Part shown: one piece after another, positions 22,273 to 46,062 of the stretch
How the letters are laid out: every line of letters begins with the position of its first letter
Numbering within the stretch: the stretch's first letter is position 1
IMG/VR virus record: IMGVR_UViG_3300042881_003883
Span: 83,930 to 147,929 of that record
Source of the DNA: a virus
Lineage: Duplodnaviria; Heunggongvirae; Uroviricota; Caudoviricetes
DNA: 64,000 nt
Strand: one strand, 5' to 3'
Program-made: the position numbers and the translations under genes
The notes under the pieces: generated by a model
What the model saw: the letters and a program-made list of their open reading frames with translations, nothing else
Told to the model about the DNA's origin: nothing
Database searches by the model: none

Positions 22273-22548
22273 ATGATACGATTAAGTAAATTAATAAACG
22301 AAGCATCTGTTGTTGAATTAAGTGAATTAACTCCAATTCAACAAAAGCAAATTAAAGCATTCGAATCAATAATCGGTGGAAAGGCCGAAATGATTTGGGA
22401 TGGTATACATGGTTTTGTAGTTGCTATAAAATTACAAAATTATCATGGTGCATATCGATTTGATGTAGATACTATGAAAAAATTAATAGCAGCAAAAGTT
22501 CGTTGGGTTGAAGAAGATTTGGGTAAACGAGTTAGTATAGGATTTTAA
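22273..22548 (+). CDS. small protein with N-terminal MIRLSKLINE motif (CTS-like family)
   Basis: Track ORF 22213..22548 overlaps the upstream gene; ATG at 22273 sits 1 nt after the upstream stop and begins MIRLSKLINEAS, the family motif. Confidence 0.5.
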   Translation: MIRLSKLINEASVVELSELTPIQQKQIKAFESIIGGKAEMIWDGIHGFVVAIKLQNYHGAYRFDVDTMKKLIAAKVRWVEEDLGKRVSIGF

Positions 22549-22563: not shown

Positions 22564-23544
22564 ATGATACAATTAAAACAATTGATAAATGAGGCTAGTG
22601 ATTTCACTGCTAAGAGTAAGGAAAGTGGAAAGTTAGTACACTTCAAATCAAAAGATTCTTATGATAAAGCTATTAAGGCTGGTTCACATGAGGACCCAAC
22701 TGCAAAAACATCAAAGGGTGGTGATGCTAAGTCTGGTGTGAATATCTTTAATACACCATCTAAAGATGAACCAAAATCGGATACACCCAAAGCAACTCCT
22801 GCTAGTTTAGCTGTTGATAAAGTTGTTTATAATACGAGAACTAAATCAGTTGGTATTGTAAGAATGGCAGATGAAAGAGGTGAAACAAAAACCGATGCAG
22901 ATGGTAATGTAAATACATCTGAATTAGAACCATACAACCCAACAAAGTATCCACATCAAAAAGATGCTAAAGTTGCACCATCTACTCAAAAAGAGGTAGA
23001 TAGTAGAGGTTTATGGAATCCATTTGCACCTGATAGTGATGAACCAAAAGCAGCTGAACCAAAAGCACCAAGAAAAGGTGACCCAACGGTAAATAAAGAA
23101 GTTAGAAAGATAGCTCAAAAGATGGGAATTTCATCTGATAAGATGGATAAAACTGAGTATCAAAAGAAAATGGCTCAAGCAGCAGTTGCGGCACTTACTG
23201 ATTCAAACTTCCATAGTGAAGCAAGAGAGTTAGTAGCAGCATTAGAAGGGAAACCTGAATTAGCAGAGAAGCCAGATTACCCCAACCCATCAGACCCTAA
23301 GTTCAGAGAAAAGATGGATGTAATCAGAGCTAAATATGATTCAGTATATAGTTCACCTGATGATGATGCACAAGATTTGGGGGTAGCCGCATCACAAGCA
23401 GCCGGATGGAGTGGAGATACCGCAATTGATGGAATTGCATTTGAATTAAGAATGAACGGATTTCATAAATTAGCAGATAAGATACAATCAGTAATTAAAG
23501 AAGGTAAAGTTAATAGAACTTCACTTAAGAACTTAATGAAATGA
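22564..23544 (+). CDS. Lys/Pro-rich protein with N-terminal MIQLKQLINE motif; paralog of the 44029..44886 product
   Basis: MIQLKQLINEASDFTAKSKESGKLVHFKSKDSYDKAIKAGSHEDP aligns with MIKLMDLLNEESFVAKSTKTGKVVNFGSRETRDAAIKSGDYEEP. Confidence 0.6.
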   Translation: MIQLKQLINEASDFTAKSKESGKLVHFKSKDSYDKAIKAGSHEDPTAKTSKGGDAKSGVNIFNTPSKDEPKSDTPKATPASLAVDKVVYNTRTKSVGIVRMADERGETKTDADGNVNTSELEPYNPTKYPHQKDAKVAPSTQKEVDSRGLWNPFAPDSDEPKAAEPKAPRKGDPTVNKEVRKIAQKMGISSDKMDKTEYQKKMAQAAVAALTDSNFHSEARELVAALEGKPELAEKPDYPNPSDPKFREKMDVIRAKYDSVYSSPDDDAQDLGVAASQAAGWSGDTAIDGIAFELRMNGFHKLADKIQSVIKEGKVNRTSLKNLMK

Positions 23545-24395
23545 TAAAATTAAATCAGTTAACTGAAAATAAAAACACCCAACCCAACTTAAATGAGGGG
23601 TTGGGTGATGCTATTTCTAAGATTAGGAATTTAGCAATAAGGATAGCTGATAAGAAAGCTGGAAATGCGGTAAAGCATCTTAACTTAGATAAAATTAGTA
23701 AAGATAAACCGGATACAAAGGCAGCAATGAATAAAGCTCAATCGGTTTTTTCAAAGCAAACTGGAATGAATGAGGATTTACGAAGTACAATTAATAAATT
23801 TTCAGTTAATGTAGGAAGTAAATCAGCATTGGGAGCAATTATATCAGCTGTATTAACTGCTGGTAGTTGGACTCAATACGCAACAGCATCATTTTCACAA
23901 TGGTATTATTCTGAAATCCAAAGATTAGCAGAACCTGAGGTAATGAAAATAATGGAAGATGTATATGGTGCACAAGCAGCTGAAGGTTCTTTATGGGCTA
24001 AGTTGGGAATGTACGCATTTTTTATATTTTTTATAATTGCAGTTGTAATGTTTGTATCTGCTAAAATAACACAAAATAGAAAAACCGAAAATACGATGAT
24101 AAAATTAACTGATTTGATGTCAGAATCAAACGAAACTTATTTCAAATCATTTACCGATGCGGCATCAGCTGCTAAAGCATACGCTATGAAAAAAGGGTAT
24201 GAAATTGATGAGAATGATTGGCAAACACAAATAGCAATGGGAGGTAAGTATTCTCGTTCAAGACCATCTATTGGTAAGACTAATTCATTTACTGTTGGAT
24301 TATTGAGAAATGGTAAACCCCAAAGAAAGGCACTACATATTTCAGTATATGGTATGGCTAGTGGAAACTTTGAATTAACTAATTATATTAATTGA
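23541..24395 (+). CDS. protein with N-terminal MIKLNQLTE motif, central TM segment and a second internal MIKLTDLMSE motif
   Basis: AFFIFFIIAVVMFVSA hydrophobic helix; internal ...ENTMIKLTDLMSESNE at about residue 178 (ATG at 24096). Confidence 0.6.
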   Translation: MIKLNQLTENKNTQPNLNEGLGDAISKIRNLAIRIADKKAGNAVKHLNLDKISKDKPDTKAAMNKAQSVFSKQTGMNEDLRSTINKFSVNVGSKSALGAIISAVLTAGSWTQYATASFSQWYYSEIQRLAEPEVMKIMEDVYGAQAAEGSLWAKLGMYAFFIFFIIAVVMFVSAKITQNRKTENTMIKLTDLMSESNETYFKSFTDAASAAKAYAMKKGYEIDENDWQTQIAMGGKYSRSRPSIGKTNSFTVGLLRNGKPQRKALHISVYGMASGNFELTNYIN

Positions 24396-34429: not shown

Positions 34430-36547
34430 ATGAGTAAATTTAAAAAGTACGGAAATTCTTCTTATTGGTTAAAGGACTGGGAAGATGATGACATCATTGT
34501 TAATCAAATGAATGATGTGGAACGTAAATCACATGACCTTTACAAATTAGCCGCTTCTAAACGAGCTATCTCCAACTTCGTTAATATCGTTACCAACGAT
34601 TCAATTCCTGTTAAATTTAGTACACGTGGTGATTCCTATACCGATGGTAAGACTGTGGTAATTGGTTCACAAATCGTAGACCCTAAGGATTTTGATGTGG
34701 CTGTTGGATTAGCATTGCACGAAGGTTCTCACATTAAACTTTCAGATTTTAAAACATTAGGTGATATTTACAATTTGGTTCCATCTCATATTAAAGATGG
34801 GGCAATCAAAAAAGGTATTACTAATCCAATTTCAACTATCAAAGATATTTGGAATGTGGTTGAGGACCGTAGAATTGATTACTACGTTTTTACCTCCGCT
34901 CCGGGTTATAGAGATTACTATCGTTCAATGTACGATAAATACTTTAATGACCCATTAATTGATAAGGGATTAACTTCAGATGAATATACTGAATCAACAA
35001 TTGATTCTTATATGTTCCGAATCATTAACATTCACAACAAAAATACAAACCTTAACGCTTTACCGGGTTTCACCGAAATCTATAAAACAATTGGTTTAGG
35101 TACTATTAACCGATTGAAATCTACCTTAGATACATTTAATGTGGCTATGGAAGTTTTTCAAATTATTCTAAATAACTTACCATCATTATCTGATGGTGAA
35201 GGTGAGGGTACTGGTGGACAGGGTGATTCTGAAGAAAATCAAAATCAAAATGGAAATGGTAATGGTAGTTCAAATGAATCACGTGAAATGAGTGATTCTG
35301 AATTTGATGATTTAATGGATTCATTGGATGGTTCATCTCCAATGACGGGTGATATGGATAGTAAACCAACTGGTGGTTCTTCTATGGAAATTGAAATGCC
35401 TGAAGGTGTTGAGCGTGGTGAAGCAACTGAATCAACTGAAGGTGGTAAGGAATCAAATAAATTAACTCTTAGTGATAACCAAAAAAACCTCCTTAAAAAG
35501 AAAATTCAAAAGCAGAAAGAGTTTATGAGAGGTGAAATTCGTAAAAAATCTATCACTCGAACTGAAGCAAATAATGTTAACGCAATTGAGGAAAGTGGTT
35601 CAGAAATTACTTCAGTTGGTGCTGGTGTTAATGATGGTTGGGGTAACTCTCGAAAGGGTACAACTTGTATAGTAGTTAAGAAACTTACCAAATCATTATT
35701 TGAAAATCAAATGTTCCCAATGACTGATAACAATTGGTACAAACCTGAAGAGACTGGATTGATTAAAATGCATTATGAGACTGAAGTTCAAAATGGAATT
35801 CGAATTGGAACTATATTAGGAAAGAAACTTCAGGTTAGAGGTGAGGACCGTTCTACGGTGTTCAATCGCCAAAAGAATGGTAGTATTGATAAACGAATGA
35901 TTTCATCATTAGGATTTGGTAATGAAAATGTGTTCCAATATATGGAAACCGATTCTTACAAAAAAGCTAACCTACATATCTCAATTGATGCTAGTGGTTC
36001 AATGGGTGGTTCTAAATGGGTTAATACCTTAACCAATGTGGTTGCACTTTGTAAAGCAGTTGATATGATTCAAAACCTATCAATTCAGGTTTCATTCAGA
36101 ACTACACATGGTAATTCACCATATGTGGTTATGGCTTACGATTCTCGTATTGATAAGTTCTCAAAGGTAAAACAAATGTTTCCGGCACTTAGAGCTGGTG
36201 GTACTACTCCTGAGGGATTATGTTTTGAGGCAATTATGAAGAATTTCTTAGGTTCTAATAACGATATGGATTCTTACTTCCTAAACATCTCAGATGGTGA
36301 ACCTTACTTTGAAGGTGGTTCTTTCCGATATAGTGGTGAACCGGCATTCGAACACACTCGTAAAATGGTTAAACAAATCGAAGGAATGGGAATTAAAACT
36401 CTTTCTTACTTTGTAGATGAGTGGTCAAATACAACCGAACCATCTCGAGGATTTAAGAAGATGTATGGTAAGGGAGCTAAGAAAATCGATGTAACAAATG
36501 TGGCTCAAATAACTAAAACAATAAATGAGTTGTTCTTAACAAAATAA
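34430..36547 (+). CDS. CobT-like von Willebrand factor A (VWA) domain protein
   Basis: C-terminal MIDAS DASGSMGG; acidic low-complexity linker GEGEGTGGQGDSEENQNQNGNGNGSS; paired with the CobS-like AAA downstream. Confidence 0.75.
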   Translation: MSKFKKYGNSSYWLKDWEDDDIIVNQMNDVERKSHDLYKLAASKRAISNFVNIVTNDSIPVKFSTRGDSYTDGKTVVIGSQIVDPKDFDVAVGLALHEGSHIKLSDFKTLGDIYNLVPSHIKDGAIKKGITNPISTIKDIWNVVEDRRIDYYVFTSAPGYRDYYRSMYDKYFNDPLIDKGLTSDEYTESTIDSYMFRIINIHNKNTNLNALPGFTEIYKTIGLGTINRLKSTLDTFNVAMEVFQIILNNLPSLSDGEGEGTGGQGDSEENQNQNGNGNGSSNESREMSDSEFDDLMDSLDGSSPMTGDMDSKPTGGSSMEIEMPEGVERGEATESTEGGKESNKLTLSDNQKNLLKKKIQKQKEFMRGEIRKKSITRTEANNVNAIEESGSEITSVGAGVNDGWGNSRKGTTCIVVKKLTKSLFENQMFPMTDNNWYKPEETGLIKMHYETEVQNGIRIGTILGKKLQVRGEDRSTVFNRQKNGSIDKRMISSLGFGNENVFQYMETDSYKKANLHISIDASGSMGGSKWVNTLTNVVALCKAVDMIQNLSIQVSFRTTHGNSPYVVMAYDSRIDKFSKVKQMFPALRAGGTTPEGLCFEAIMKNFLGSNNDMDSYFLNISDGEPYFEGGSFRYSGEPAFEHTRKMVKQIEGMGIKTLSYFVDEWSNTTEPSRGFKKMYGKGAKKIDVTNVAQITKTINELFLTK

Positions 36548-36574
36548 TTCAAATTGTTAATAACTTTATTGAAA

Positions 36575-36669
36575 ATAATTAGAAAAAGGCTTGTTTATCT
36601 CAAGTCTTTTTTGTATATTTGAGTATAAGATTGATAGATAGATTAAATCACTTAAAAAACCCCTAAATT
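36575..36669 (+). promoter_or_regulatory. repeated promoter-leader cassette, copy C (with hairpin AGGCTTGTTTATCTCAAGTCT + T6)
   Basis: GAAAATAATTAGAAAAAGGCTTGTTTATCTCAAG...TATATTTGAGTATAAGATT...AAAAAACCCCTAAATT then ATG 36670. Confidence 0.6.
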
Positions 36670-36894
36670 ATGGCTAAAAGTAAAAAAACGATTGAAGTTA
36701 GTACTATGTTGGATTGGGCTAATGAACAACTAAAACGAACCGATGAGTTCGCTACAGTGGCATTTAAGGCTGGCATTGCCACCACCATTGAAAGAATCCT
36801 ATTCAATACCAATAATTACAAAGGATTTGGGTTTATAGACAACGCAGATTCGGATACTGGTACATTAGGTTATTATAGTCGATTTTATTATTAA
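36670..36894 (+). CDS. small hypothetical protein between CobT- and CobS-like genes
   Basis: 74 aa ORF with its own cassette copy. Confidence 0.45.
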   Translation: MAKSKKTIEVSTMLDWANEQLKRTDEFATVAFKAGIATTIERILFNTNNYKGFGFIDNADSDTGTLGYYSRFYY

Positions 36895-36904
36895 AAAAAG
36901 CAAA

Positions 36905-36999
36905 AATAATTGGCAAAAAGCTTGTTTATATCAGAAATTGTTCGTATATTAGACAGGTAATTGAGAGAGTAATTAATTAAAACCCTAAAATAAATAAAA
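36905..36999 (+). promoter_or_regulatory. repeated promoter-leader cassette, copy D
   Basis: AAAATAATTGGCAAAAAGCTTGTTTATATCAGAAATTGTTCGTATATTAGACAGGTAATTGAGAGAGTAATTAATTAAAACCCTAAAAT. Confidence 0.6.
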
Positions 37000-38208
37000 A
37001 TGAAAGATTTAAAAATTGGATTCGTAGGAAATGAGGTTTACAAAGTAGAAGCTTTTGGTAACTCATTTAAGTTAATTGACACTAAAGGTCAAAAAGTTGG
37101 TACAATGGGTATCGGAACCGGTACTCGTAAAGATGCATTTGAGCAGGGATTGGCTCTTCAGGCATTCGTTCAAAAGAATGGTAAGAAGGTTTTCCGAAAA
37201 GTGGGAATGGAAGTTTATAATAACTTAGTTTCCCCAATGAATACCGATAATGGTGGTGTTCAATTTGAAGATAAAGGTGACCATAACGCAATCAAAGATT
37301 TCATTCACAATAGTTCAATTGATTTGAAACCAATTGAATTGGTGATGACACCTCTAAAGTGGAAATACTTAGTTCGTTCAGCTGTTAGAGCTAAAAACAT
37401 TATGATGACTGGACCTGCTGGTTGTGGTAAAACAATGGCAGCTAAAGCATTGGTTAAAGCACTTGACCGACCTGATTTCTACTTCAACTTAGGAGCAACG
37501 CAAGACCCTCGTGCTACTTTGATTGGTAATACTCACTTTGATAAAAACAAAGGAACTTTCTTCGCTGAATCGGCATTCGTTAAAGCAATTAAAACTCCAA
37601 ACGCTGTGATTCTATTAGATGAGTTGAGTAGAGCTCACCCTGATGCTTGGAACATTTTGATGACCGTTTTAGATGGTGGACAACGTTACTTACGTTTGGA
37701 TGAGGCTGAAGGTTCACCAATTGTTAAAGTGGCTGAAGGTGTTACCTTTATCGCTACCGCTAACATAGGTTCTGAATATACTTCGACTAGGGTAATCGAT
37801 AGGGCTATCTTAGACCGTTTCGTAACTATCGAAATGGATGTTCTAAATGATGAGCAGGAATTTGGATTGTTAAAGTTTATGTTCCCTGAGGTTAATGATT
37901 ATGATTTGAAAGCAATCGCTGAAATCGCTCACCACACTCGAACTCAATCGATGAGTGATTCTGGTAAAGTTACCGCTATGGTATCGACGAGAGCTAGTGT
38001 TGAAATGGCTGGATTAATTTATGATGGATTCGATTTATTCGAATCAGCTGAAATTTCAATCTTCCCATTCTTCTCTAATGATGGTGGTGTAGATTCTGAA
38101 AGAACTTATGTGAAACAACTGGTTCAAAAATATGTTAAAGATACATCAGCAGAAGCTCTTTTTACCGAACAAAAAGAAGAGTTAGTAGATGAAATCCCAA
38201 TGTTCTAA
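37000..38208 (+). CDS. CobS-like / MoxR-type AAA+ ATPase
   Basis: Walker A GPAGCGKT; Walker B ILLDELSRAHPDAWNILMTVLDGG; ~400 aa. Confidence 0.8.
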   Translation: MKDLKIGFVGNEVYKVEAFGNSFKLIDTKGQKVGTMGIGTGTRKDAFEQGLALQAFVQKNGKKVFRKVGMEVYNNLVSPMNTDNGGVQFEDKGDHNAIKDFIHNSSIDLKPIELVMTPLKWKYLVRSAVRAKNIMMTGPAGCGKTMAAKALVKALDRPDFYFNLGATQDPRATLIGNTHFDKNKGTFFAESAFVKAIKTPNAVILLDELSRAHPDAWNILMTVLDGGQRYLRLDEAEGSPIVKVAEGVTFIATANIGSEYTSTRVIDRAILDRFVTIEMDVLNDEQEFGLLKFMFPEVNDYDLKAIAEIAHHTRTQSMSDSGKVTAMVSTRASVEMAGLIYDGFDLFESAEISIFPFFSNDGGVDSERTYVKQLVQKYVKDTSAEALFTEQKEELVDEIPMF

Positions 38209-38230
38209 GGTTAATCAATTATAAATGAGA

Positions 38231-38247
38231 TGGGGGGTAATACCCCC
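38231..38247 (+). other. GC-rich hairpin (GGGGGGT-AAT-ACCCCCC) after the CobS-like stop
   Basis: Perfect 7 bp G/C stem; no T-run follows, so function as a terminator is uncertain. Confidence 0.4.
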
Positions 38248-38280
38248 CTGAATCTCTAAATTCAAAAAAAAAGATTAACT

Positions 38281-38616
38281 ATGAAAATACTCCAAACAAT
38301 AGATTGGAAAATGCGAAAGTTCAATTTAAATATAAAATTACTTAATATATACATCAACGGACCTTATGAACAATGGGGTGTTGAAATTCTGAAAATAACA
38401 AAGGGATTGCATTCTTATTATTTATTTAAATTTTTATGTTTCTTACCAAATTACACAAACCGATTTAGATTTAGATGGGAGGGTGATTTGTTCTTTTTAA
38501 GGAATACTTTAGCAAAGCAATTGGATGAGTTGCAAGACCACAAAGTATGGTCACCTCGAACATTCAATAAATTCCACAAAATAAAATACAATGTATTAAA
38601 ATTCATATTACGATGA
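38281..38616 (+). CDS. doubtful ORF (Phe/Trp/Leu-rich; may be non-coding leader)
   Basis: ATG ORF in a 400 bp gap; atypical composition; contains direct repeat GATTTAGATTTAGAT. Confidence 0.25.
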   Translation: MKILQTIDWKMRKFNLNIKLLNIYINGPYEQWGVEILKITKGLHSYYLFKFLCFLPNYTNRFRFRWEGDLFFLRNTLAKQLDELQDHKVWSPRTFNKFHKIKYNVLKFILR

Positions 38617-39707
38617 AATTAGAAACGATTTACAAAAAAACTAAGACAGGTGCAACTCAAGAGTGGACAATTGAAGTATCCGATAATAAATACAGAACTC
38701 ATAGTGGACAATGTGGTGGAGTAATTACCACAAACACATGGACAGTTGTGTATGGTAAAAATGAAGGTAAAGCAAATGGTACTACTGATAACGAACAAGC
38801 TCTTAAAGAAGCAATAGCTAAGAGAACTAAAAAGTTAGAGAGTGGTTATTTTGAAAGTATTAATAACATTGATACTAAACAATACTTTGAACCTATGTTG
38901 GCGGCCAAGTGGGAAGATTACAAAGATAAAATTGAATACCCAATATTCTCTCAACCAAAATTAGATGGTATCCGATGTATCCTTACCAAAGATGGTATGT
39001 TTAGTAGGAATGGTAAACCAATTGTATCAGCACCTCACATTTTTGAATCAATGAAATATTTGTTTGATGAGAATCCAAATCTAATATTTGATGGAGAATT
39101 GTACGCTGATAAGTTCGCTAATGATTTCAATAAGATTGTATCGTTGGTGAAAAAAACAAAGCCAACTCCATCTGATTTAGAGGAATGTAAAAAAGTAATC
39201 AAATACCATATCTATGATTTCCCATCACATGGTGGTGAATTTGTTGAAAGATTCAAAGCATTGTATGGTGTTAAGTTACCATCTACTTGTGAGTTTGTAA
39301 CAACCCACCCTGTTAGGGATGAGGCTGGTGTTATGGATTTGTATGGTAAATATGTTGAGCAGGGTTATGAGGGGCAAATGCTTCGTACTGGTGGACTTTA
39401 TGAGAATAAACGAAGTAAGTACCTTTTGAAGCATAAATCCTTTGTAGATGAGGAATATACGATTTTAGATATATGTGAAGGTGAGGGTAACCGAACCGGC
39501 ACTTGTGGATATATGGTATTTAATACCAAAGATGGAAAGCGATTCAAATCAAATGTAAAGGGGACATTTGCTGAAACAGCTGAGATTTTAGAAAACAAAG
39601 ATTCCTTGATAGGTAAAGAAGCAACTGTTAAGTACTTTAACCTAACACCGGATGGAATTCCCCGATTTCCTTATGTTATAAAAATAAATAGAAATGAGTA
39701 TGAGTAA
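38613..39707 (+). CDS. lig: ATP-dependent DNA ligase
   Basis: Motif I KLDGIR, motif III FDGELY, motif IV EGQMLR, motif V LLKHK. Confidence 0.85.
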   Translation: MKLETIYKKTKTGATQEWTIEVSDNKYRTHSGQCGGVITTNTWTVVYGKNEGKANGTTDNEQALKEAIAKRTKKLESGYFESINNIDTKQYFEPMLAAKWEDYKDKIEYPIFSQPKLDGIRCILTKDGMFSRNGKPIVSAPHIFESMKYLFDENPNLIFDGELYADKFANDFNKIVSLVKKTKPTPSDLEECKKVIKYHIYDFPSHGGEFVERFKALYGVKLPSTCEFVTTHPVRDEAGVMDLYGKYVEQGYEGQMLRTGGLYENKRSKYLLKHKSFVDEEYTILDICEGEGNRTGTCGYMVFNTKDGKRFKSNVKGTFAETAEILENKDSLIGKEATVKYFNLTPDGIPRFPYVIKINRNEYE

Positions 39708-39860
39708 AGACACCAAAGATTGGATGGAAAAGTTAGTAAAGAACTATCGAATTCCATTGGAAGAGGACAAATCCAAAAAACAAGAACCAAAGAAACTATT
39801 GAAAGAATCACAATTAAAAAAGATTTTGGAAAGAAATTAGGTTATTTGAATTATTTTTTG

Positions 39861-39868
39861 TATATTTG
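39861..39868 (+). promoter_or_regulatory. -7 promoter box TATATTTG
   Basis: TTATTTTTTGTATATTTG context shared with 2483-2497 and 19665-19681. Confidence 0.5.
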
Positions 39869-39914
39869 AAATATGAATTACTATAATATACAAGCATTCG
39901 TAAAAAAGATAAAG

Positions 39915-40178
39915 ATGAAAACATTCAAAGATTTAGAATTTAAACCACATACTGCCGGAATGGGAGGTGTGATGAGTCGTATCATATTTGAAAATGGATA
40001 TGGTGCTAGTGTAGTTAAGACCCCATATACCTATGGTGGTGATAGGGGAAAATATGAATTAGCAGTATTAGGTACTGATGGTGATTTGACATATGATACT
40101 CCAATTACAGATGATGTTATTGGGTATTTATCAGAAACAGAAGTTACTGATATATTAGAACAAATCCAAAAATTGTAA
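39915..40178 (+). CDS. hypothetical protein (track start 39873 lies only 4 nt after the promoter box, so the ATG at 39915 is more plausible)
   Basis: ORF; start position uncertain. Confidence 0.45.
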   Translation: MKTFKDLEFKPHTAGMGGVMSRIIFENGYGASVVKTPYTYGGDRGKYELAVLGTDGDLTYDTPITDDVIGYLSETEVTDILEQIQKL

Positions 40179-40179
40179 T

Positions 40180-40641
40180 ATGGCATATAATAAATTCCGT
40201 TGGTACACATCTAAACTTAGAAAGAAGCCACTACCAAAATCAGCTCCATTACTCCGAAGGATTCAAAATGGTGATTTTGAAGTTTCACCTTATTTTGATG
40301 AGGCAAAGTATAATAGAGAACTTGCGATTGAAGCTTATGAATTGACTAAAAAGAATGCACTTATTTCAGACCCAGCTCAATTAGAGATGGAGGCATTGTA
40401 TGCTGGTAGAATTAAAAGAGTAAAAGCTCTTAAGTTAGATGAAGTAGGTAATACTGATGAGAATAAACGATTGCGAGAATTACAAAGAGCATTAGCCGAA
40501 GAATTCGAAAAGGATTTATGGGAGAAGGCTATGGAAAGAAAGCGGGGTAAGGGTACTACTGAAGATTTATATTGGTGGTATAAAAAACAATGTAAGCTTG
40601 GTTACACTAAATCAGAATTACAAATTAGAGGAATCATATGA
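40180..40641 (+). CDS. hypothetical basic protein
   Basis: ORF. Confidence 0.5.
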   Translation: MAYNKFRWYTSKLRKKPLPKSAPLLRRIQNGDFEVSPYFDEAKYNRELAIEAYELTKKNALISDPAQLEMEALYAGRIKRVKALKLDEVGNTDENKRLRELQRALAEEFEKDLWEKAMERKRGKGTTEDLYWWYKKQCKLGYTKSELQIRGII

Positions 40642-40825
40642 AAGAAGCATACTTTAAAGTACTAAATACAATTAAAACTGCACAATACGCTGCAATGGCA
40701 AATGGAAGTGTGAAAAAATTAATAAATAATTTTAGTAATATGTATGATGACAAGGATTTAATTGAATCTTTGGATACTATTTATAATGAAAAACTAAAAG
40801 AATATCAACTATAATACTTATTGAT

Positions 40826-41101
40826 ATGGAAATGATTAAAAGCAGATACGGATTAGAGAGAGTTATCGAAAAATTAGATACCAATAGACTTAGGATTACT
40901 GGGGAATCTCAATTTCAAAGAACATCAACAAATGATTCCGGTGAAACGGTAATGTTTGACTTTGAAGGTGGACCGGTATTATCGGTAGGAGGAGTACTTA
41001 ATTTTCAAAAATCAAAATGGATTATAACATCAATCACACCAATTGATTCAAAGTACGAAGGATTGGTAGAATGCATTGTAGGGGTTAAATTATCTTATTA
41101 G
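40826..41101 (+). CDS. hypothetical small protein
   Basis: ORF. Confidence 0.4.
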   Translation: MEMIKSRYGLERVIEKLDTNRLRITGESQFQRTSTNDSGETVMFDFEGGPVLSVGGVLNFQKSKWIITSITPIDSKYEGLVECIVGVKLSY

Positions 41102-41112
41102 GAGAATAGATT

Positions 41113-41307
41113 ATGTTTGGTTTACTATCAGAGGCAGAAGTACAAGACCCACTTATCACTAAAAAGATATTGGAATCACTTACAGCGGCCCAAAACAAAA
41201 TGTTGAACGATGGTAGACTTCTAATCAACCCTATAACAGGGGATACAATAGTACCCATTCGGGTATCACAAAATCAAATAGCAAAAATTGTAATTAATAT
41301 ATTTTAA
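41113..41307 (+). CDS. hypothetical small protein
   Basis: ORF. Confidence 0.4.
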   Translation: MFGLLSEAEVQDPLITKKILESLTAAQNKMLNDGRLLINPITGDTIVPIRVSQNQIAKIVINIF

Positions 41308-41556
41308 GATGGAAATCAAATATCCAACTTTTAAGTATTTTAATGAAGAGTGGAATAACGAACCCCACACCGATGATGAGTATGGAGATACGCATGTAGA
41401 TGGTGTAGATGAAATTTAGTTATTGGGATTAAGGGGATACCTCCTTTTCATCGATTCGGTGGGGGGTGAGTCGCAACCTTAATTTTTTTGATAGTTTTGT
41501 TATATTTATACTTATATTTGAATATTACATTTAGCTATCCTTACACTTATTACTAT

Positions 41557-41775
41557 ATGAATAACTCCGCACATCCGAATCCACAACGTAGTAGATTAGA
41601 AAGATTTATATACGAAATACAAAGCCGCTTGGGAATACAACCAAAATGGGAAAGGGATTTACTTCAAACCGATGAGAAGTTAAAGACGTATAAGGAGTTT
41701 AAGGATAAGGGGATATGTAGTACATTGTATTACTTAAGAATAAATTTTTTAAAAGGATGGACAATAAAATTATAG
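41557..41775 (+). CDS. small ORF upstream of a possible -1 frameshift site
   Basis: Track ORF begins with TTG at 41488 inside the AT-rich promoter-like TTATATTTG; first ATG is at 41557. T_TTT_TTA heptamer near the 3' end. Confidence 0.3.
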   Translation: MNNSAHPNPQRSRLERFIYEIQSRLGIQPKWERDLLQTDEKLKTYKEFKDKGICSTLYYLRINFLKGWTIKL

Positions 41776-41966
41776 AGTTAATCAACAAATACCCAAACGA
41801 TGCTGAGTTGGGAAATGTTATCCGTAGAGCGTATTGGAGAGAATCCACAACTGGGGAGAAAATCTTTGAATCCCCGGATAAGGGAAAAACGATATACTCC
41901 CGTCAAAGTGGTGAAACCGAACGAACTTTAGTAGATAGGCAGATGGAGATACCATATGAGGGATAA
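41757..41966 (+). CDS. small ORF in the -1 frame relative to 41557..41775
   Basis: Overlaps the upstream ORF by 19 nt. Confidence 0.35.
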   Translation: MDNKIIELINKYPNDAELGNVIRRAYWRESTTGEKIFESPDKGKTIYSRQSGETERTLVDRQMEIPYEG

Positions 41967-42094
41967 ACTAAAAAGGTTTTGGAAGAGGTTAGTATCTCTT
42001 ACATTAGAAGCTGGGGAAGGGATATGGGAAGCAACCAAAAATGGAAATTATCCATATTTATAGGGGAGTTAAGTAACAACCCAATTTCGAGTCT

Positions 42095-42865
42095 ATGTAC
42101 AAAGTAAGAGGATATCAAAAACCGGAGGATTCGTTCCACACTATTGGAGAGTGGGAACGTATCTCTAAGCGTTTTTTAGACCTACAAAAGGGTGGTTCCG
42201 ATACTAGGGGTGGGGTTTTACCTACGGACCCGAAGATGATGGAACTTATAGATACTTATTTTGGATATCAACTATGGGTTGAAACCGATTTGTATGGGGA
42301 TTTGACCAAGAAAAACGTTTTAGACTTTATTGAAGATTTTGTAAACCATAGGATATGGGGAATCAGAGATGAGTTTGGGGATTATATAAAGAACATAAAC
42401 AATGATAGGATTGCGTTCTTTAATAGTAGAGGAGCAATTGAACCTTATATTCTATTGGATAAATCGTTTACTAAGGATACTTATGGTAACGTAGGTTCTG
42501 AGGTGGTAACGTACCATTGGACATCTGAGGAGGGATTCAGAAACCTTGCAGATAGTATCCGAAGTGGGTATAGTTTTTCTATATCAACGTTTACTACCCA
42601 AGCAAAGGAGTTCTTTAGACCGGAGAGTAATATATTGGTAAAGATAAGAGGAGAGTTAGTAGCCGCATTTAAATCAGATGTAAAATCATTTGCAACTGAT
42701 AGAGGAAATCGGGCAGCTAACTTATTCCGTTTTTCATACCCGGATAATGAGAATAATCTATGTACGGATTTAGTGAATTGTACTGAGAACAAAACCTCAC
42801 TTTGGAACGAAATAATTGTAAAACCAATATCTATATTAGATTATAAGCAAATTAAAAAGTATTAA
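42095..42865 (+). CDS. hypothetical protein in GC-elevated island
   Basis: Local GC ~45-52% vs ~31% genome; AGG/GGG/CCG codons enriched. Confidence 0.5.
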   Translation: MYKVRGYQKPEDSFHTIGEWERISKRFLDLQKGGSDTRGGVLPTDPKMMELIDTYFGYQLWVETDLYGDLTKKNVLDFIEDFVNHRIWGIRDEFGDYIKNINNDRIAFFNSRGAIEPYILLDKSFTKDTYGNVGSEVVTYHWTSEEGFRNLADSIRSGYSFSISTFTTQAKEFFRPESNILVKIRGELVAAFKSDVKSFATDRGNRAANLFRFSYPDNENNLCTDLVNCTENKTSLWNEIIVKPISILDYKQIKKY

Positions 42866-42866
42866 T

Positions 42867-43280
42867 ATGATAAGTTTAAAAGAAATTATCTATGAAGTAC
42901 TAAATGAGGTTGTGATAAGTGTATCGGATTTAGATGATACATTAGAACAATATAGAAAAGATACCAATTGGACAGATTGGTATATGAGTGGAGGATGTTA
43001 TACATTTGCTGATGGTCTGAATAAGTATTTAGGAAATAGAGGTAAGTATGTAGCTATAATAGAACCGGAAACGAAAGCGATGGTTCACGTTTGTGTTTTG
43101 TATGGTGGGAAGTATTGTGATTATAACGGATGTAGAAGTAAAAACGATATACTATCCGATATCACTATAAATGGAACTCCGATATGGAAAACCATAAACC
43201 GGTCACAAATATCATCGGAACATAATTTTGATAATAGTGAAGTAACCTCAATAGTAAAGAATTTAAATAAAATAAGATAA
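42867..43280 (+). CDS. Cys-rich protein with N-terminal MISLKEIIYE motif (CTS-like family)
   Basis: First ~20 nt nearly identical to the start of the 43280 gene. Confidence 0.55.
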   Translation: MISLKEIIYEVLNEVVISVSDLDDTLEQYRKDTNWTDWYMSGGCYTFADGLNKYLGNRGKYVAIIEPETKAMVHVCVLYGGKYCDYNGCRSKNDILSDITINGTPIWKTINRSQISSEHNFDNSEVTSIVKNLNKIR

Positions 43281-44032
43281 TGATAAGTTTAAAGGAAATA
43301 ATTAAAGGGATTCTAAGTGAGGGTGTTGATGACCCGGGAATCTTAAAATGTGTATTTATGGCAGGAGGACCTGGAAGTGGGAAATCATTTACTGCTAAAG
43401 AGATATTTGGAGTGGGTAAATCTGCATTTTCATCGGTATCTGCTGGTGGATTGAAATTAGTAAATTCTGATACTGCATTTGAGAAGGGTCTTAAAGATAA
43501 TGGTATTGATATGAAGGAGTTGGGTAACATTGAAAAGAATGACCCGGAACTTTGGGATTTAATCACTAAGGGAGATAATTCAATTAGAGGAAAAGCAAAA
43601 GCGATTACCGATAAACAAAGAGCTTTTTATGAAGCTGGTAGATTGGGTATGATTATCGATGGAACCGGAGATGAGGTATCTAAGATTAAAAAGAAAATGG
43701 AACATGCTGAATCATTAGGATATGATTGTTCAATGGTGTTTGTAAATACATCATTGGAAGTAGCATTGGAAAGAAATAAAAACCGAGATAGAGTTCTATC
43801 GGATGAGTTGGTAACCAAAATTTGGAAAGATTGTCAAAATAACTTAGGAGCATTCCAAGGTATGTTTAGTGGTAACTTTGTAATTGTAGATAATACCGTT
43901 TACAAACCGGTAAATAGACCAGTACAACAAGCAGTAGATGCGTTCTTAAGAAAACCACTTTATAATCCAATTGGAAAAAAATGGGTAGCAACTGCTAGAA
44001 TATTAAAAAAATCTAATCTGATTAAGAAATGA
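43280..44032 (+). CDS. P-loop kinase (PNK/zeta-toxin/AAA_33-like) with N-terminal MISLKEIIKGILSE motif
   Basis: Walker A GGPGSGKS; IIDGTGDE...VFVNTSLEVALERNKNR resembles the PNK/zeta-type kinase core. Confidence 0.6.
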   Translation: MISLKEIIKGILSEGVDDPGILKCVFMAGGPGSGKSFTAKEIFGVGKSAFSSVSAGGLKLVNSDTAFEKGLKDNGIDMKELGNIEKNDPELWDLITKGDNSIRGKAKAITDKQRAFYEAGRLGMIIDGTGDEVSKIKKKMEHAESLGYDCSMVFVNTSLEVALERNKNRDRVLSDELVTKIWKDCQNNLGAFQGMFSGNFVIVDNTVYKPVNRPVQQAVDAFLRKPLYNPIGKKWVATARILKKSNLIKK

Positions 44033-44886
44033 TAAAATTAATGGACTTGTTGAACGAAGAAAGCTTCGTAGCAAAATCAACAAAAACGGGTAAGGTAGTA
44101 AACTTTGGTTCAAGAGAAACCAGAGATGCTGCAATTAAATCCGGCGATTATGAAGAACCTGAAAAGGGAGATGCTGGTGCACCTCCTAAACCTAAAGTAA
44201 ATATATTTGATAAACCAGCTGATAAGAAAGCTGGAGGAGAAACTCCAAAAGCGGCCGAAGAACCTACAAAGGAACCGGCTGAGAAAACCGATTACGAAAA
44301 GGGATTGGCTGCTAAGGCTAAGGAAGCAGTTGGTAGAATTAGTGATAAAATCAAAGGATGGGCCAAAGAAGAAAAAGAATTCTTTAAATCTGATTCACAT
44401 AAAGGAGGTTCTAAGGAAAGAAGAAGTTGGGGACACGCAATTTCAGATAAAGCTAAAGGAGCTTGGGAAGCTGTTAAAAAGGGCGCTAAAGGTGAAGTAG
44501 AAGAATTCAAAACTGCAGGTGGTGCAGTTAAATCACTATTTAAAGGTGAAGAGATGAATGACCACCAAAAGAAGGCTTTAAAAGCAGTAGCTATTAAAGT
44601 TGTAACAACTGCTCTATTTGGAGCTGCAACCGGTGGATTAGCACACGGAGCTGCTGCATTCGGTCAACACGTTGCTATGGAGTTTATTCCTCACGTAGTA
44701 GGTGAAACGATTTTAAAAGGAGTAGGTAAAGCGGCAATATTTGCTGGAGATGAAGAAGAGAATGAAGATGTATATATGGAGAAATTCGCTCAGATGATTG
44801 CTGAGAAATTGGCTAACGAACCAATACCGGCTGAGTTGATGGAGAAATTCGTAGATTCATATAATGAAAAGAAACTAGCAAAATAA
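44029..44886 (+). CDS. Lys-rich protein with Gly/Ala-rich hydrophobic segment and N-terminal MIKLMDLLNE motif; paralog of the 22564 product
   Basis: N-terminal 45 aa align with the 22564 product; TTALFGAATGGLAHGAAAFG glycine-zipper-like helix. Confidence 0.6.
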   Translation: MIKLMDLLNEESFVAKSTKTGKVVNFGSRETRDAAIKSGDYEEPEKGDAGAPPKPKVNIFDKPADKKAGGETPKAAEEPTKEPAEKTDYEKGLAAKAKEAVGRISDKIKGWAKEEKEFFKSDSHKGGSKERRSWGHAISDKAKGAWEAVKKGAKGEVEEFKTAGGAVKSLFKGEEMNDHQKKALKAVAIKVVTTALFGAATGGLAHGAAAFGQHVAMEFIPHVVGETILKGVGKAAIFAGDEEENEDVYMEKFAQMIAEKLANEPIPAELMEKFVDSYNEKKLAK

Positions 44887-44889
44887 GAA

Positions 44890-45489
44890 ATGAAAAGATT
44901 AAGTTTATTTATCCCATTTATTTTAATATTATTTTCATTTACAGGTGATTCTCACCGACATGAAGTTAAGGTAAAAACCCCAATATTTGAAGTACTATAT
45001 TCAGAGGTATTCGAACAACCACTTTGGTTAACATATGAATCAACTAATAGAGCTACAAATGTGAATAGAGGTTCTATGGATTTTTATACTGAAAAGGATG
45101 TACATACATCAGATGCTAATGATTATCGTACAAATGTATATGATAAGGGTCACTTAGCACCAGCAGCTACATTTTCTGATAATATAGAAAATTTAAAACA
45201 AACGTTTTCATATTTGAATTGTGCACTACAAGACCAATATATGAATAGAGGTGAGTGGAGAATGTTAGAAGAGCAGGAAAGAAAATGGGATGATACCGAA
45301 AAACTAAAAGTTAAAGTTGAGTTGGTATTTGGAAAAGGACATAAAGTCCTACCAACCGGAGGACATGTTCCAACATCAATGGTTAAACATATCTATTTTT
45401 CAAAACAAAAGAAGTGGAAATGTTTTGATTTTCCTAATTCAAAACCAACTAAAGGTTGGGAAGGGCATGAAGTTAAACATATTCACTAA
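44890..45489 (+). CDS. secreted non-specific DNA/RNA endonuclease (Serratia-NUC / DRGH family)
   Basis: Signal peptide MKRLSLFIPFILILFSF; active-site-like DKGHLAPAA (DRGH motif variant), N..Q downstream. Confidence 0.7.
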   Translation: MKRLSLFIPFILILFSFTGDSHRHEVKVKTPIFEVLYSEVFEQPLWLTYESTNRATNVNRGSMDFYTEKDVHTSDANDYRTNVYDKGHLAPAATFSDNIENLKQTFSYLNCALQDQYMNRGEWRMLEEQERKWDDTEKLKVKVELVFGKGHKVLPTGGHVPTSMVKHIYFSKQKKWKCFDFPNSKPTKGWEGHEVKHIH

Positions 45490-45549
45490 AAAAATAGCGA
45501 AAACAAAAAAGATATATATTTATAATAAGAAAACAAAAAAAGATTTATT

Positions 45550-45999
45550 ATGGCATTAACATACGAATGGAAATTAACGGGTTTAAAAAAGCAAGATACT
45601 GCTGATTTAACTGATTTAGTAATTGGAACCCAATGGAAATTAATTGGTACTAATGAAAATGGTACTGAAGGTACATTTAGTGGAGCAACTCCATTGGATA
45701 TTCCTGATGCTGATGAGGCGGGATTTATTCCTTATGAGCAACTTACTGAAGAAGTTGTATTAGGTTGGATTCAAAATATAGTATCTGGTAGTGCACCAAC
45801 TAATTATATGGCTCACATCAATGAACAAATCTTAAAGCAAATCAACCAAAAAGAATACGCTATTAAAGAAGTTGGTGAAACTGATTTACCTTGGTCACCT
45901 ACATCTGGAAGTGTGACTCCGGCTGGTCCGATGGAACCTGCACCAACAGCAGCTCCAACAACTGAAACTACAACTGAAGTTGTGGTTGATGGTGAATAA
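45550..45999 (+). CDS. hypothetical protein with Pro/Thr/Ala-rich C-terminus
   Basis: ORF; acidic. Confidence 0.5.
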   Translation: MALTYEWKLTGLKKQDTADLTDLVIGTQWKLIGTNENGTEGTFSGATPLDIPDADEAGFIPYEQLTEEVVLGWIQNIVSGSAPTNYMAHINEQILKQINQKEYAIKEVGETDLPWSPTSGSVTPAGPMEPAPTAAPTTETTTEVVVDGE

Positions 46000-46026
46000 T
46001 ATCACCTAATAAAAAATAATTAAAGA

Positions 46027-46062
46027 AAAGCTTGGATATACCAAGCTTTTTTTGTATCTTTG
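46027..46062 (+). promoter_or_regulatory. terminator hairpin (AAGCTTGG-ATATA-CCAAGCTT + T6) followed by -7 box TATCTTTG
   Basis: Perfect 8 bp palindromic stem containing HindIII-like AAGCTT; box at 46055-46062. Confidence 0.6.

What the first reader, a model, noticed from the sequence alone, without database searches (positions are those of the whole stretch)
42867..44886. Second cluster of leader-motif proteins, including a P-loop kinase and a Gly/Ala-helix paralog; adjacent genes begin with nearly identical DNA
Genes at 42867 and 43280 start with the same ~20 nt (ATGATAAGTTTAAAAGAAAT / ATGATAAGTTTAAAGGAAAT) encoding MISLKEII. The gene at 44029 (MIKLMDLLNE) is a paralog of 22564 over its first ~45 aa. 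The 43280 product is a PNK/zeta-toxin-like P-loop kinase (GGPGSGKS ... IIDGTGDE). If the leader is a packaging signal, this kinase would be injected into the host. The repeated 5' ends look like portable start-plus-leader modules that let new payloads be recruited by recombination.
Basis: partly seen in the sequence, partly recalled or inferred. Interest (0 to 1): 0.7.

Follow-up and report, generated by a model that had tools for sequence, protein, structure and literature searches.

The report
Capsid-targeting leaders on phage cargo proteins
Three neighbouring genes of an uncultured 270-kb marine T4-like phage, one of them a kinase, start with the same short peptide, which most likely works like phage T4's capsid-targeting sequence and loads them into the head for injection: a known mechanism carrying new cargo.

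Summary
Six genes in two triplets (22273/22564/23541 and 42867/43280/44029) begin M-I-x-L-x-x-[LI]-[ILT]-x-E, against 0.04 expected. A seventh copy lies in frame inside ORF 23541. The window belongs to a ~271-kb uncultured marine phage with T4-type replication genes.

The leader has the anatomy of the T4 capsid-targeting sequence (MKTYQEFIAE): hydrophobic residues at positions 4, 7 and 8 and Glu at 10, which is the L/I-x-E site of the gp21 prohead protease.

In 119 of 119 kinase homologues a leader of variable length (8-108 aa) ends in [LIVM]-x-E directly before the conserved mature start GVDDPGILK. In cultured relatives the leader follows the phage, not the payload.

Published virion proteomes contain the Atu_ph07 kinase-domain protein gp53 (apparently cut to ~20 kDa pieces) and RsoM2USA ORF257, a leader-bearing neighbour of that phage's kinase.

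The 43280 product is an intact PNK/zeta-like P-loop kinase. 42867 is a YunG-like protein with a conserved Cys-His-Asp. 44029 is an alpha-helical protein with no detectable fold relative.

Best reading: these are prohead-targeted, protease-trimmed internal or ejection proteins, a new member of a known kind. Two things are not shown: the phage's own gp21 protease, and packaging in this particular phage.

The parts
42867..43280 (+). Gene for a 137-aa YunG-like protein (Pfam PF24591 family). Codons 1-14 (42867-42908) are the leader MISLKEIIYEVLNE, with candidate cleavage after E10 or E14. The body carries a conserved GGC..FA...H...D motif.
   Evidence: Eleven of 13 family members match PF24591 (best E 2.7e-11). 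G42, C44, F47 and A48 are invariant; H74 and D85 are nearly so.
43280..44032 (+). Gene for a 250-aa P-loop kinase of the PNK/zeta-toxin type. Codons 1-14 (43280-43321) are the leader MISLKEIIKGILSE. The predicted mature protein starts at G15 (GVDDPGILKC), at 25.9 kDa and pI 9.3.
44029..44886 (+). Gene for a 285-aa protein. It has the leader MIKLMDLLNE (44029-44058), a small N-domain shared with 22564, a Pro/Lys-rich linker, and a conserved alpha-helical C-domain with Gly/Ala-rich hydrophobic helices (H222, E226 and G231 invariant).
22273..22548 (+). First-cluster gene, 91 aa, leader MIRLSKLINE. The true start lies inside the listed ORF 22213-22548.
22564..23544 (+). First-cluster gene, 326 aa, leader MIQLKQLINE. 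Its N-terminal 77 aa are paralogous to 44029.
23541..24395 (+). First-cluster ORF, 284 aa, leader MIKLNQLTE. A second in-frame leader, MIKLTDLMSE, starts at nt 24096. The 99-aa module it heads is a stand-alone gene in a related contig.
   Evidence: 47% identity, E 3e-32 to L010:6215-6514.
42095..42865 (+). Conserved 256-aa neighbour without a leader. A 69%-identical homologue sits two genes upstream of the 44029-like gene in 91- and 164-kb contigs that carry the same T4-type replication-gene order. In between, those contigs have a PG_binding/GH19 gene where this window has the YunG-like and kinase genes.
44890..45489 (+). Endonuclease_NS family nuclease with an N-terminal hydrophobic, signal-like segment. 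It recurs in the same neighbourhood in the related contigs.
45550..45999 (+). DUF7936 protein. In related contigs its homologue lies immediately upstream of the tail-sheath gene.
46023..46053 (+). Terminator-like hairpin (13 pairs followed by a T-run). It probably closes the gene string that contains the cluster.

Best explanation
The three genes at 42867-44886, and the triplet at 22273-24395, encode internal (ejection) proteins of a T4-superfamily phage head.

Proposed mechanism: each protein is made with a short N-terminal propeptide of the T4 capsid-targeting type (M-I-x-L-x-x-L/I-I/L-x-E). The propeptide binds the scaffolding core while the prohead assembles. The gp21-family prohead protease then removes it by cutting after the L/I-x-E motif. 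The mature, mostly basic proteins stay in the head with the DNA and enter the host cell at infection.

The cargo consists of:
- a PNK/zeta-like P-loop kinase;
- a YunG-like protein that may be a thiol enzyme;
- helical proteins of unknown fold.

Because the address label is separate from the payload, payloads are swapped, fused and relabelled between related phages.

Shown here: the motif and its clustering; the conserved [LIVM]-x-E junction in front of the mature kinase domain; the leader following the phage rather than the payload; an intact kinase active site; and virion presence of homologues in two other phages (from the literature).

Inferred: that this phage has a gp21-type protease; that cleavage occurs at the predicted sites; that these proteins are packaged and injected in this phage; and what the kinase phosphorylates.
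For: 1. Motif anatomy. The leaders are MIRLSKLINE, MIQLKQLINE, MIKLNQLTE, MISLKEIIYE(VLNE), MISLKEIIKGILSE and MIKLMDLLNE. Compare the T4 sequences MKTYQEFIAE (capsid-targeting sequence, quoted from my own knowledge), gp24 MAKINELLRE|S, gp22 MLKEQLIAE|A and gp21 MNEPQLLIE|T. In T4, residues 4 and 7 drive targeting and residues 8 and 10 drive processing, with cleavage after L/I-x-E (PMC9026906).

2. Statistics. Six of 100 gene starts carry the motif against 0.04 expected, in two runs of three adjacent genes.

3. Kinase family. There are more than 7,900 homologues. In 119 of 119 with an N-terminus, the tripeptide before the mature start G-[VLI]-x-D-x-G-[IV]-[LF]-K is [L51/I58/V8/M2]-x-E. Leader lengths run from 8 to 108 aa, with 74 distinct leaders. 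L/I-x-E density is 8.6 per 100 aa in leaders and 0.23 per 100 aa in mature parts; the window-wide background is 1.18.

4. The leader tracks the phage. The kinase starts are Melnitz MKTFAELQE|G, HTVC008M MIPFILKE|G and RsoM2USA MTTFKEYLLE|G. Five adjacent, otherwise unrelated RsoM2USA genes start with leaders ending in L/I-x-E (most of the form M..FK.(F/Y)L.E), and four adjacent Atu_ph07 genes start MRWEQL(T/N)E or MKWNDLNE. The pelagimyophage gp21 proteases themselves start MKLI(T/S)E.

5. Experimental evidence from relatives.
- Atu_ph07 gp53 (87.08 kDa, = AUZ94865) holds the kinase domain behind a V-T-E|G junction. It was found in virions with 31 unique peptides and 45.5% coverage.
- It was most abundant in gel band 9, where 18-24 kDa proteins run. 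The predicted fragment 253-458 is 23.0 kDa.
- The leader-bearing neighbours gp54-56 are also in the virion proteome (PMC6102473 Table S5; masses matched).
- RsoM2USA ORF257, a leader-bearing gene three genes from its kinase, is one of the 10 virion bands analysed. The paper gives its mass as 17.57 kDa. I calculate 17.97 kDa after cleavage at ITE and 19.65 kDa uncleaved (PMC8504454).

6. Models. The leader is a short helix followed by a low-confidence segment, detached from the fold (pLDDT below 50 for kinase residues 1-19 and 44029 residues 1-11).

7. Modularity.
- The 44029 family keeps the leader and the C-domain but swaps N-domains.
- There are in-frame fusions with internal leaders (P0135 and P0166; nt 24096).
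- The slot between the 256-aa gene and the 44029-like gene holds different genes in relatives.

8. The phage is T4-type. It has clamp loader gp44/gp62, DNA polymerase B and RNR, and shares gene order with contigs that carry gp32, UvsX, a DnaB-type (gp41-like) helicase, a gp53-like protein and a tail sheath.
Against: - The phage's own prohead protease and head genes were not seen. They lie outside the window and beyond the reach of the tools: two collection scans with gp21, plus a two-step walk from baseplate and sheath genes, did not reach a head module of this lineage.
- There are no virion data for this uncultured phage.
- No T4-type late promoter (TATAAATA) lies upstream of either cluster, and the motif is not enriched in this AT-rich window. 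Expression timing is therefore unknown.
- Within the window, the depletion of L/I-x-E in the mature parts is weak (0.77 against 1.18 per 100 aa, P 0.10).
- The kinase homologues are related sequences, so 119 of 119 does not represent 119 independent events.
- The E-G-V-D-D-P-G stretch could be conserved for kinase function rather than for cleavage.
- The RsoM2USA band assignments were made by the authors from a gel and are not quantitative.
Confidence: 0.72

Rival explanations
1. The proteins are ordinary cytoplasmic phage enzymes. The shared N-terminus would be a by-product of local duplication or gene conversion and of a favoured AT-rich start context (for example for translational coupling), with no targeting role.
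For: - The genes are translationally coupled, with overlapping stop and start codons.
- ATA at codon 2 is a general habit of this genome (10 of 11 genes with Ile at codon 2).
- 42867 and 43280 share 19 of 20 nt, as a recent conversion would produce.
- No late promoter was found.
Against: - The peptide pattern is kept despite synonymous and conservative changes among the six genes.
- The [LIVM]-x-E junction persists in contigs whose leader sequences are unrelated, and in phages of Pelagibacter, Methylophilales, Ralstonia and Agrobacterium.
- Homologues are found in virions.
- Internal in-frame leaders cannot be start-context effects.
Confidence: 0.15
2. The kinase acts on the phage's own nucleic acid or nucleotides during replication. 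It could be a 5-hydroxymethyluracil DNA kinase (5-HMUDK) of a thymidine hypermodification pathway, or a PNK-type end-healing enzyme paired with the HAD phosphatase at 19683. On this reading it is not an injected effector.
For: - The best fold matches are polynucleotide kinases (4gp7 E 7e-7; T4 Pnk 1ly1, target-normalised TM-score 0.72).
- The window has a 367-aa thymidylate-synthase-family gene at 51309 and a HAD protein matching a PNK phrog (phrog_415).
- 5-HMUDKs are P-loop kinases (PMC8989533).
- HAD-like genes sit near the kinase in Melnitz and HTVC008M (assigned from the DMDGV motif, my reading).
Against: - tblastn at E 1e-5 found no similarity to the ViI, M6, SP10 or PhiW-14 kinases.
- No aGPT-Pplase-type Pfam family is listed among the called genes in the roughly 74 kb of this genome, in and beside the window, that was retrieved with Pfam annotation.
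- This reading does not explain the leader or the virion presence of Atu_ph07 gp53.
- It is compatible with packaging, so it rivals the proposed function more than the mechanism.
Confidence: 0.1
3. The kinase is a zeta-type toxin of a toxin-antitoxin or exclusion module, and the upstream 137-aa gene is its antidote.
For: Pfam Zeta_toxin scores above its cut-off (30.4 bits against 22.3). Foldseek matches zeta and PezT. A small gene lies directly upstream and is translationally coupled.
Against: - The upstream gene belongs to the YunG-like family, not to epsilon or PezA.
- In most related contigs the kinase stands without it.
- The family is confined to lytic T4-type phages among cultured genomes.
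Confidence: 0.03

Closest known systems
T4 internal proteins IPI, IPII, IPIII and Alt, with their capsid-targeting sequence (CTS)
   Same: - A short N-terminal leader with hydrophobic residues at positions 4, 7 and 8 and Glu at 10, ending in the gp21 site L/I-x-E.
- Unrelated payloads that share the leader.
- Small, mostly basic mature proteins.
- Genes clustered in variable loci; T-even phages have more than 30 IP variants at two highly variable loci (PMC2839356, PMC3012670, PMC9026906).
   Different: - The leader sequence itself differs (MIxLxxLIxE against MKTYQEFIAE), and two leaders are 14 aa long.
- The payloads have no T4 counterpart: a P-loop kinase, a YunG-like protein and a helical Gly/Ala-rich protein.
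- The host phage is an uncultured ~271-kb marine phage only distantly related to T4 (clamp loader 37-45% identical to its best phage matches, none of them T4).
- Neither packaging nor cleavage was measured here.
Atu_ph07 gp53-gp56 and RsoM2USA ORF254-258 (jumbo phages with T4 core genes)
   Same: - A homologous kinase domain (E 8e-36 and 1e-24).
- Arrays of adjacent genes that share a phage-specific leader ending in L-x-E.
- Members detected in virions by mass spectrometry.
   Different: - In Atu_ph07 the kinase is the middle domain of a 778-aa multidomain protein.
- The neighbouring genes are not homologous to those in the window (BLASTP).
- I found no mention of a capsid-targeting sequence in those papers: neither appeared in the 'capsid targeting' search, and the passages I read do not mention one.
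Ejection proteins of phiKZ, 201phi2-1 and SPN3US, processed by a diverged gp21 homologue
   Same: Many head-internal proteins carry propeptides that are cut after Glu at a three-residue motif, and they are ejected into the host.
   Different: Their cleavage motif is S/A/G-x-E, not L/I-x-E. There is no sequence relationship, and the phage lineage is different.
Polynucleotide kinases (C. thermocellum Pnkp kinase domain, T4 Pnk) and zeta/PezT toxins
   Same: - The P-loop kinase fold.
- Walker A GGPGSGKS.
- An invariant Asp after strand 2 (N62-S63-D64).
- D127-G-T.
- An Arg-rich lid (R165, R169, R171).
   Different: - 13-21% identity over the Foldseek alignments.
- No fused phosphatase domain, unlike T4 Pnk.
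- No epsilon-type antitoxin.
- An N-terminal propeptide is present.
- The substrate is unknown.

Membership tests
T4-type CTS/propeptide-bearing internal head proteins | N-terminal leader of about 10 aa with hydrophobic residues at positions 4 and 7/8, ending in L/I-x-E | tested here: met
   All six gene starts and the internal copy at nt 24096 fit. They were compared with T4 gp21, gp22 and gp24 and with the rules in PMC9026906.
T4-type CTS/propeptide-bearing internal head proteins | The same phage encodes a gp21-family prohead protease | not testable with these tools
   The head module lies outside the window. Scans with gp21 and a walk from baseplate and sheath genes did not reach it. The inference rests on T4-type replication genes and on shared gene order with contigs that carry baseplate and sheath genes.
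T4-type CTS/propeptide-bearing internal head proteins | The protein is present in virions in an N-terminally processed form | not testable with these tools
   The phage is uncultured. There is indirect evidence only: Atu_ph07 gp53-56 and RsoM2USA ORF257 are in virion proteomes, and gp53 runs far below its full mass.
T4-type CTS/propeptide-bearing internal head proteins | The leader is independent of the payload and the locus is variable between relatives | tested here: met
   Seventy-four distinct leaders occur on one kinase domain. The same leader type occurs on unrelated bodies. The slot content differs in related contigs.
P-loop kinase, AAA_33 / Zeta_toxin (PNK-like) | Pfam score above the gathering cut-off | tested here: met
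   AAA_33 scores 40.6 bits against a cut-off of 27; Zeta_toxin scores 30.4 bits against 22.3.
P-loop kinase, AAA_33 / Zeta_toxin (PNK-like) | Walker A motif, catalytic Asp after strand 2, and lid arginines are conserved | tested here: met
   K35, S36, N62, S63, D64, D127, G128, T129, R165, N166, R169 and R171 are invariant in 23 sequences. Assigning roles to these residues by analogy with Pnk and zeta toxin is my inference.
P-loop kinase, AAA_33 / Zeta_toxin (PNK-like) | Fold similarity to solved kinases | tested here: met
   The model has pLDDT 79.9. Foldseek matches are 4gp7 (E 7e-7), zeta and PezT (about 1e-5), and T4 Pnk (target-normalised TM-score 0.72).
Zeta/epsilon toxin-antitoxin system | An adjacent epsilon- or PezA-type antitoxin gene | tested here: not met
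   The upstream gene is YunG-like, and it is absent next to the kinase in most related loci.
T4 Pnk (bifunctional kinase-phosphatase) | A fused C-terminal HAD phosphatase domain | tested here: not met
   The 250-aa protein is a single kinase domain. A separate HAD gene lies at 19683.
5-hmdU DNA kinase (5-HMUDK) | Similarity to the M6, ViI, SP10 or PhiW-14 kinases, and a co-occurring aGPT-Pplase gene | tested here: not met
   Those phages gave no tblastn hit at E 1e-5. No such Pfam family appears among the annotated neighbours. Only part of the genome was seen.
Pfam PF24591 Phage_YunG-like (42867 product) | Score above the gathering cut-off | tested here: inconclusive
   The window protein scores 22.5 bits against a cut-off of 27, but 11 of 13 aligned relatives match, with a best E of 2.7e-11.

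The most novel reading that the evidence does not exclude
A P-loop kinase of the PNK/zeta type is a widespread capsid-packaged, protease-matured effector that T4-superfamily phages inject with their DNA. The family spans abundant marine phages of SAR11 and OM43 through to soil jumbo phages, with more than 7,900 sequence clusters. It would be the first injected kinase effector described for tailed phages, acting on a host or phage substrate in the first seconds of infection. Candidate substrates are RNA or DNA 5'-OH ends, NAD, or a UDP-sugar.
Probability: 0.45. Interest if true: 0.6.

Novelty: new member of a known kind. Interest (0 to 1): 0.45.

Why it matters
The T4 capsid-targeting sequence is a textbook device, but it has been studied almost only in coliphages. 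Here the same logic appears in an abundant uncultured marine phage lineage: the kinase sequence is indexed in 234 blocks of the public assembly collection, on contigs of up to about 270 kb.

It gives a simple sequence rule for predicting which hypothetical proteins are injected into the host: a phage-specific N-terminal leader ending in L/I-x-E, followed by a body poor in that motif.

It also singles out one conserved cargo, a PNK/zeta-like kinase. That kinase already has unrecognised proteomic support in Atu_ph07 and has cultured carriers (Melnitz, HTVC008M) in which its role could be tested.

It does not reveal a new mechanism.

Tried and rejected
- **Finding this phage's own gp21 protease.** Scanning IMG/VR with HTVC008M gp21 returned only close pelagimyophage relatives. 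A profile scan of GTDB genomes gave 48 loci, none from this lineage. A two-step walk from the gp53-like/764-aa genes and from the tail sheath reached tail, fibre and baseplate genes but no head module. Look-ups at both ends of the window showed only replication, auxiliary metabolic and unannotated small genes.
- **Nucleotide search.** A megablast of 14 kb against 50,697 phage records found no match.
- **44029.** There was no phage tblastn hit. A weak Pfam RRM_fung match is below its cut-off. The AlphaFold2 model has pLDDT 68.7, and Foldseek against PDB found nothing at E below 1. I considered a pore-forming or colicin-like reading, but it has no support.
- **42095 and 42867 against PDB sequences, and the 42867 family profile.** Only chance-level hits.
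- **BLASTP of window cluster proteins against the Atu_ph07, RsoM2USA and HTVC008M neighbours.** No homology beyond the kinase.
- **T4 late promoter TATAAATA.** Not enriched (21 matches against 18 expected), and none lies upstream of the clusters.
- **Rfam and tRNA scans of the window.** Nothing.
- **ATA at codon 2 as a leader-specific DNA signal.** Rejected, because it is a genome-wide habit.
- **Depletion of L/I-x-E in the mature parts within the window.** Only a trend (P 0.10).
Full report
**What is there**

All are on the + strand and have abutting or overlapping stops and starts. All ORFs I took as genes in the window run on the + strand, and G+C is about 32%.

The window is part of a 270,754-bp metagenomic contig. 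The same genome turns up at about 271 kb in three assemblies that are linearised at different points, so it is probably complete.

The window and its flanks carry T4-type replication genes: clamp loader gp44/gp62, DNA polymerase B and RNR. They also carry cyanophage-like auxiliary genes: heme oxygenase, a bilin reductase, CpeT and GroES/EL. No phage record matches at the DNA level. The nearest relatives at the protein level share only 37-45% identity in the clamp loader.

Scanning every ATG in the window finds six real genes that start M-I-x-L-x-x-[LI]-[ILT], most followed by x-E. They form two runs of three neighbours: 22273, 22564, 23541 and 42867, 43280, 44029. About 0.04 such starts are expected among the 100 genes. 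The pattern was chosen after seeing the data, but the excess (P about 5e-12) and the clustering at gene-order positions 30-32 and 61-63 are far beyond chance.

The starts of 42867 and 43280 share 19 of 20 nt and, by my count, 32 of the first 42 nt. They share a 14-residue version of the leader.

44029 and 22564 are paralogous over 77 residues.

A seventh leader, MIKLTDLMSE, lies in frame at nt 24096 inside ORF 23541-24395. The module it heads is a stand-alone 99-aa gene in a related contig (47% identity, E 3e-32).

Part of the nucleotide identity is unremarkable. ATA at codon 2 and TTA for Leu are genome-wide habits.

**What the leader looks like**

The T4 literature describes a 10-residue capsid-targeting sequence on the internal proteins. 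Residues 4 and 7 direct targeting to the scaffolding core, and residues 8 and 10 direct removal by the gp21 prohead protease, which cuts after L/I-x-E. Alt, gp22, gp24 and probably gp21 itself carry similar N-terminal propeptides (PMC9026906, PMC3012670).

The window's leaders place hydrophobic residues at positions 4, 7 and 8 and Glu at position 10. They resemble T4 gp24 (MAKINELLRE|S) and gp22 (MLKEQLIAE|A).

**Test 1: the junction in the kinase family**

The kinase has more than 7,900 database relatives. In all 119 listed relatives that include an N-terminus, the conserved domain begins at G-V-D-D-P-G-I-L-K and is directly preceded by [L/I/V/M]-x-E. Upstream of that point the sequence is hypervariable, with lengths from 8 to 108 residues and 74 distinct leaders.

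L/I-x-E motifs are 37-fold denser in the leaders than in the mature parts: 8.6 against 0.23 per 100 aa, with a window background of 1.18. The window's mature kinase has none.

This is the pattern expected of a propeptide that a gp21-type protease removes, on a protein that must itself survive that protease. The relatives are not independent, and within the window the depletion is only a trend (P 0.10).

**Test 2: does the leader follow the phage or the protein?**

It follows the phage. In cultured carriers the kinase starts are:
- Melnitz: MKTFAELQE|G
- HTVC008M: MIPFILKE|G
- RsoM2USA: MTTFKEYLLE|G

In RsoM2USA five adjacent, otherwise unrelated genes start with leaders that end in L/I-x-E. 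In Atu_ph07 four adjacent genes start MRWEQL(T/N)E or MKWNDLNE.

The pelagimyophage proteases themselves begin MKLI(T/S)E.

The 44029 family keeps the leader and the C-terminal domain while its N-domains are exchanged. Some members are in-frame fusions in which a second leader sits between two modules.

**Test 3: published virion proteomes**

The Atu_ph07 paper lists 131 virion proteins. By exact mass I matched four of them:
- gp53 (87.08 kDa) = AUZ94865, the protein that contains the kinase domain behind a V-T-E|G junction
- gp54 = AUZ94866
- gp55 = AUZ94867
- gp56 = AUZ94868, with gp54-56 being the leader-bearing neighbours

gp53 was identified with 31 unique peptides and 45.5% coverage. It was most abundant in band 9, where 18-24 kDa proteins run. 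The fragment predicted between V-T-E252 and L-T-E458 is 23.0 kDa.

In RsoM2USA, ORF257 is a leader-bearing gene three genes from the kinase, and it is one of the ten virion bands analysed. That phage has a T4-type prohead protease (ORF379), and Atu_ph07 has a gp21 homologue (gp204).

Neither paper appeared in my 'capsid targeting' search, and the passages I read do not mention the shared leaders.

**The payloads**

*Kinase (43280).* It passes the Pfam cut-offs for AAA_33 and Zeta_toxin. The AlphaFold2 model has pLDDT 79.9, with the first 19 residues disordered. Its best matches are the C. thermocellum polynucleotide kinase, zeta/PezT toxins and T4 Pnk. Walker A, the N-S-D64 motif, D127-G-T and the arginine lid are invariant. 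The substrate cannot be read from sequence.

*42867.* It belongs to the Pfam YunG-like family and has an invariant Cys, with His and Asp conserved in at least 90% of the 13 aligned sequences. This suggests a thiol enzyme, which is my inference.

*44029.* It has a small N-domain, a Pro/Lys-rich linker and a helical domain with Gly/Ala-rich hydrophobic helices. No fold relative was found.

The predicted mature proteins are mostly basic, like the T4 internal proteins.

**Context**

In 91- and 164-kb contigs that share the window flank's gene order (RNR, thioredoxin, Mom), the 44029-like gene sits at the end of a block that follows gp53-like and large structural genes and precedes gp32. That block contains homologues of the window's 256-aa gene (69% identity) and of its secreted nuclease. 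Where the window has the YunG-like and kinase genes, those contigs have a PG_binding/GH19 gene.

In other related contigs the kinase sits alone at yet another position. The DUF7936 gene that closes the window's cluster lies next to the tail sheath gene in related contigs.

The locus is therefore plastic, much like the T-even IP loci (PMC2839356).

**What is not shown**

- I could not reach the head module of this phage or of its lineage. Its gp21 protease is inferred from its T4-type gene set, not seen.
- Expression timing is unknown.
- Packaging, cleavage sites and injection are inferred from sequence rules and from two other phages.

**Verdict**

The mechanism it points to is the known T4 capsid-targeting and propeptide system. 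The new elements are the lineage, the leader consensus and the cargo, above all a widespread kinase that appears to be packaged in the virion.

Noticed in passing
window + strand, core AACCCCTAAA at 34193, 34417, 36658, 36980, 57654, 58080, 60269: A conserved intergenic cassette of about 70 nt (consensus ...CTTGTTTATATCAGnAATTATTCGTATATTAGACAGGTAATTGAGAGAGTAATTAATTAAACCCCTAAA) ends a few to about 20 nt before the ATG of seven genes. It may be a promoter plus 5'-UTR cassette, reminiscent of the mobile regulatory cassettes of T4-type phages. It is not found in front of the leader clusters.
   Followed up: partly
window 24096-24395, inside ORF 23541-24395: A complete leader-plus-payload module (MIKLTDLMSE + 89 aa) is fused in frame to the upstream leader-bearing, membrane-spanning module. 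The same module is a separate 99-aa gene in IMG/VR contig L010.
   Followed up: yes
window 24400-24666: An 88-aa homologue of ribosomal protein S21, like the one annotated in Pelagibacter phage HTVC008M. It lies directly after the first leader cluster.
   Followed up: partly
window 42402-42494 (frame 3, inside gene 42095): A 30-codon out-of-frame ORF starts with a perfect leader-like peptide, MIGLRSLIVE. It may be chance or a relic; my rough estimate is about 0.01 such matches expected in the window.
   Followed up: no
window 21747-22271 and 19683-20237: Two more genes next to the first cluster have weaker leader-like starts. One is MSSSKLKTILSE|I, ending in the same ILSE as the kinase leader. 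The other is MLTIKQENMIARSLLVE|S, on a HAD phosphatase that matches a polynucleotide-kinase phrog. A packaged kinase plus phosphatase pair is conceivable.
   Followed up: no
window 33214-33900, 53790-54931, 55559-57463: Cyanophage-type auxiliary genes (CpeT, heme oxygenase, ferredoxin-dependent bilin reductase) and GroES/GroEL occur in a 32% G+C genome of about 271 kb. This hints at a picocyanobacterial host for a lineage with no cultured member.
   Followed up: no
window 41420-41530: A G-rich hairpin followed by a T-run, then a sigma-70-like TTGATA...TATACT stretch, lies just upstream of the gene string 41557-46000 that contains the cluster. It may be a terminator-promoter pair.
   Followed up: no
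L122 (Atu_ph07 36453-45112) and PMC6102473 Table S5: Atu_ph07 gp55-gp65 form an array of about 30-kDa virion proteins. The three whose sequences I read (gp54-gp56), and the N-terminal part of gp53, start MRWEQL(T/N)E or MKWNDLNE and carry a YRGM motif, which could mark Alt-like ADP-ribosyltransferases. RsoM2USA ORF255 has the same motif.
   Followed up: partly
P0184 (65 aa): A database protein shares 26 of the first 27 residues of the 42867 product, leader included, and then continues with an unrelated low-complexity tail. It is either a recombinant with a different body or a frameshifted assembly.
   Followed up: no
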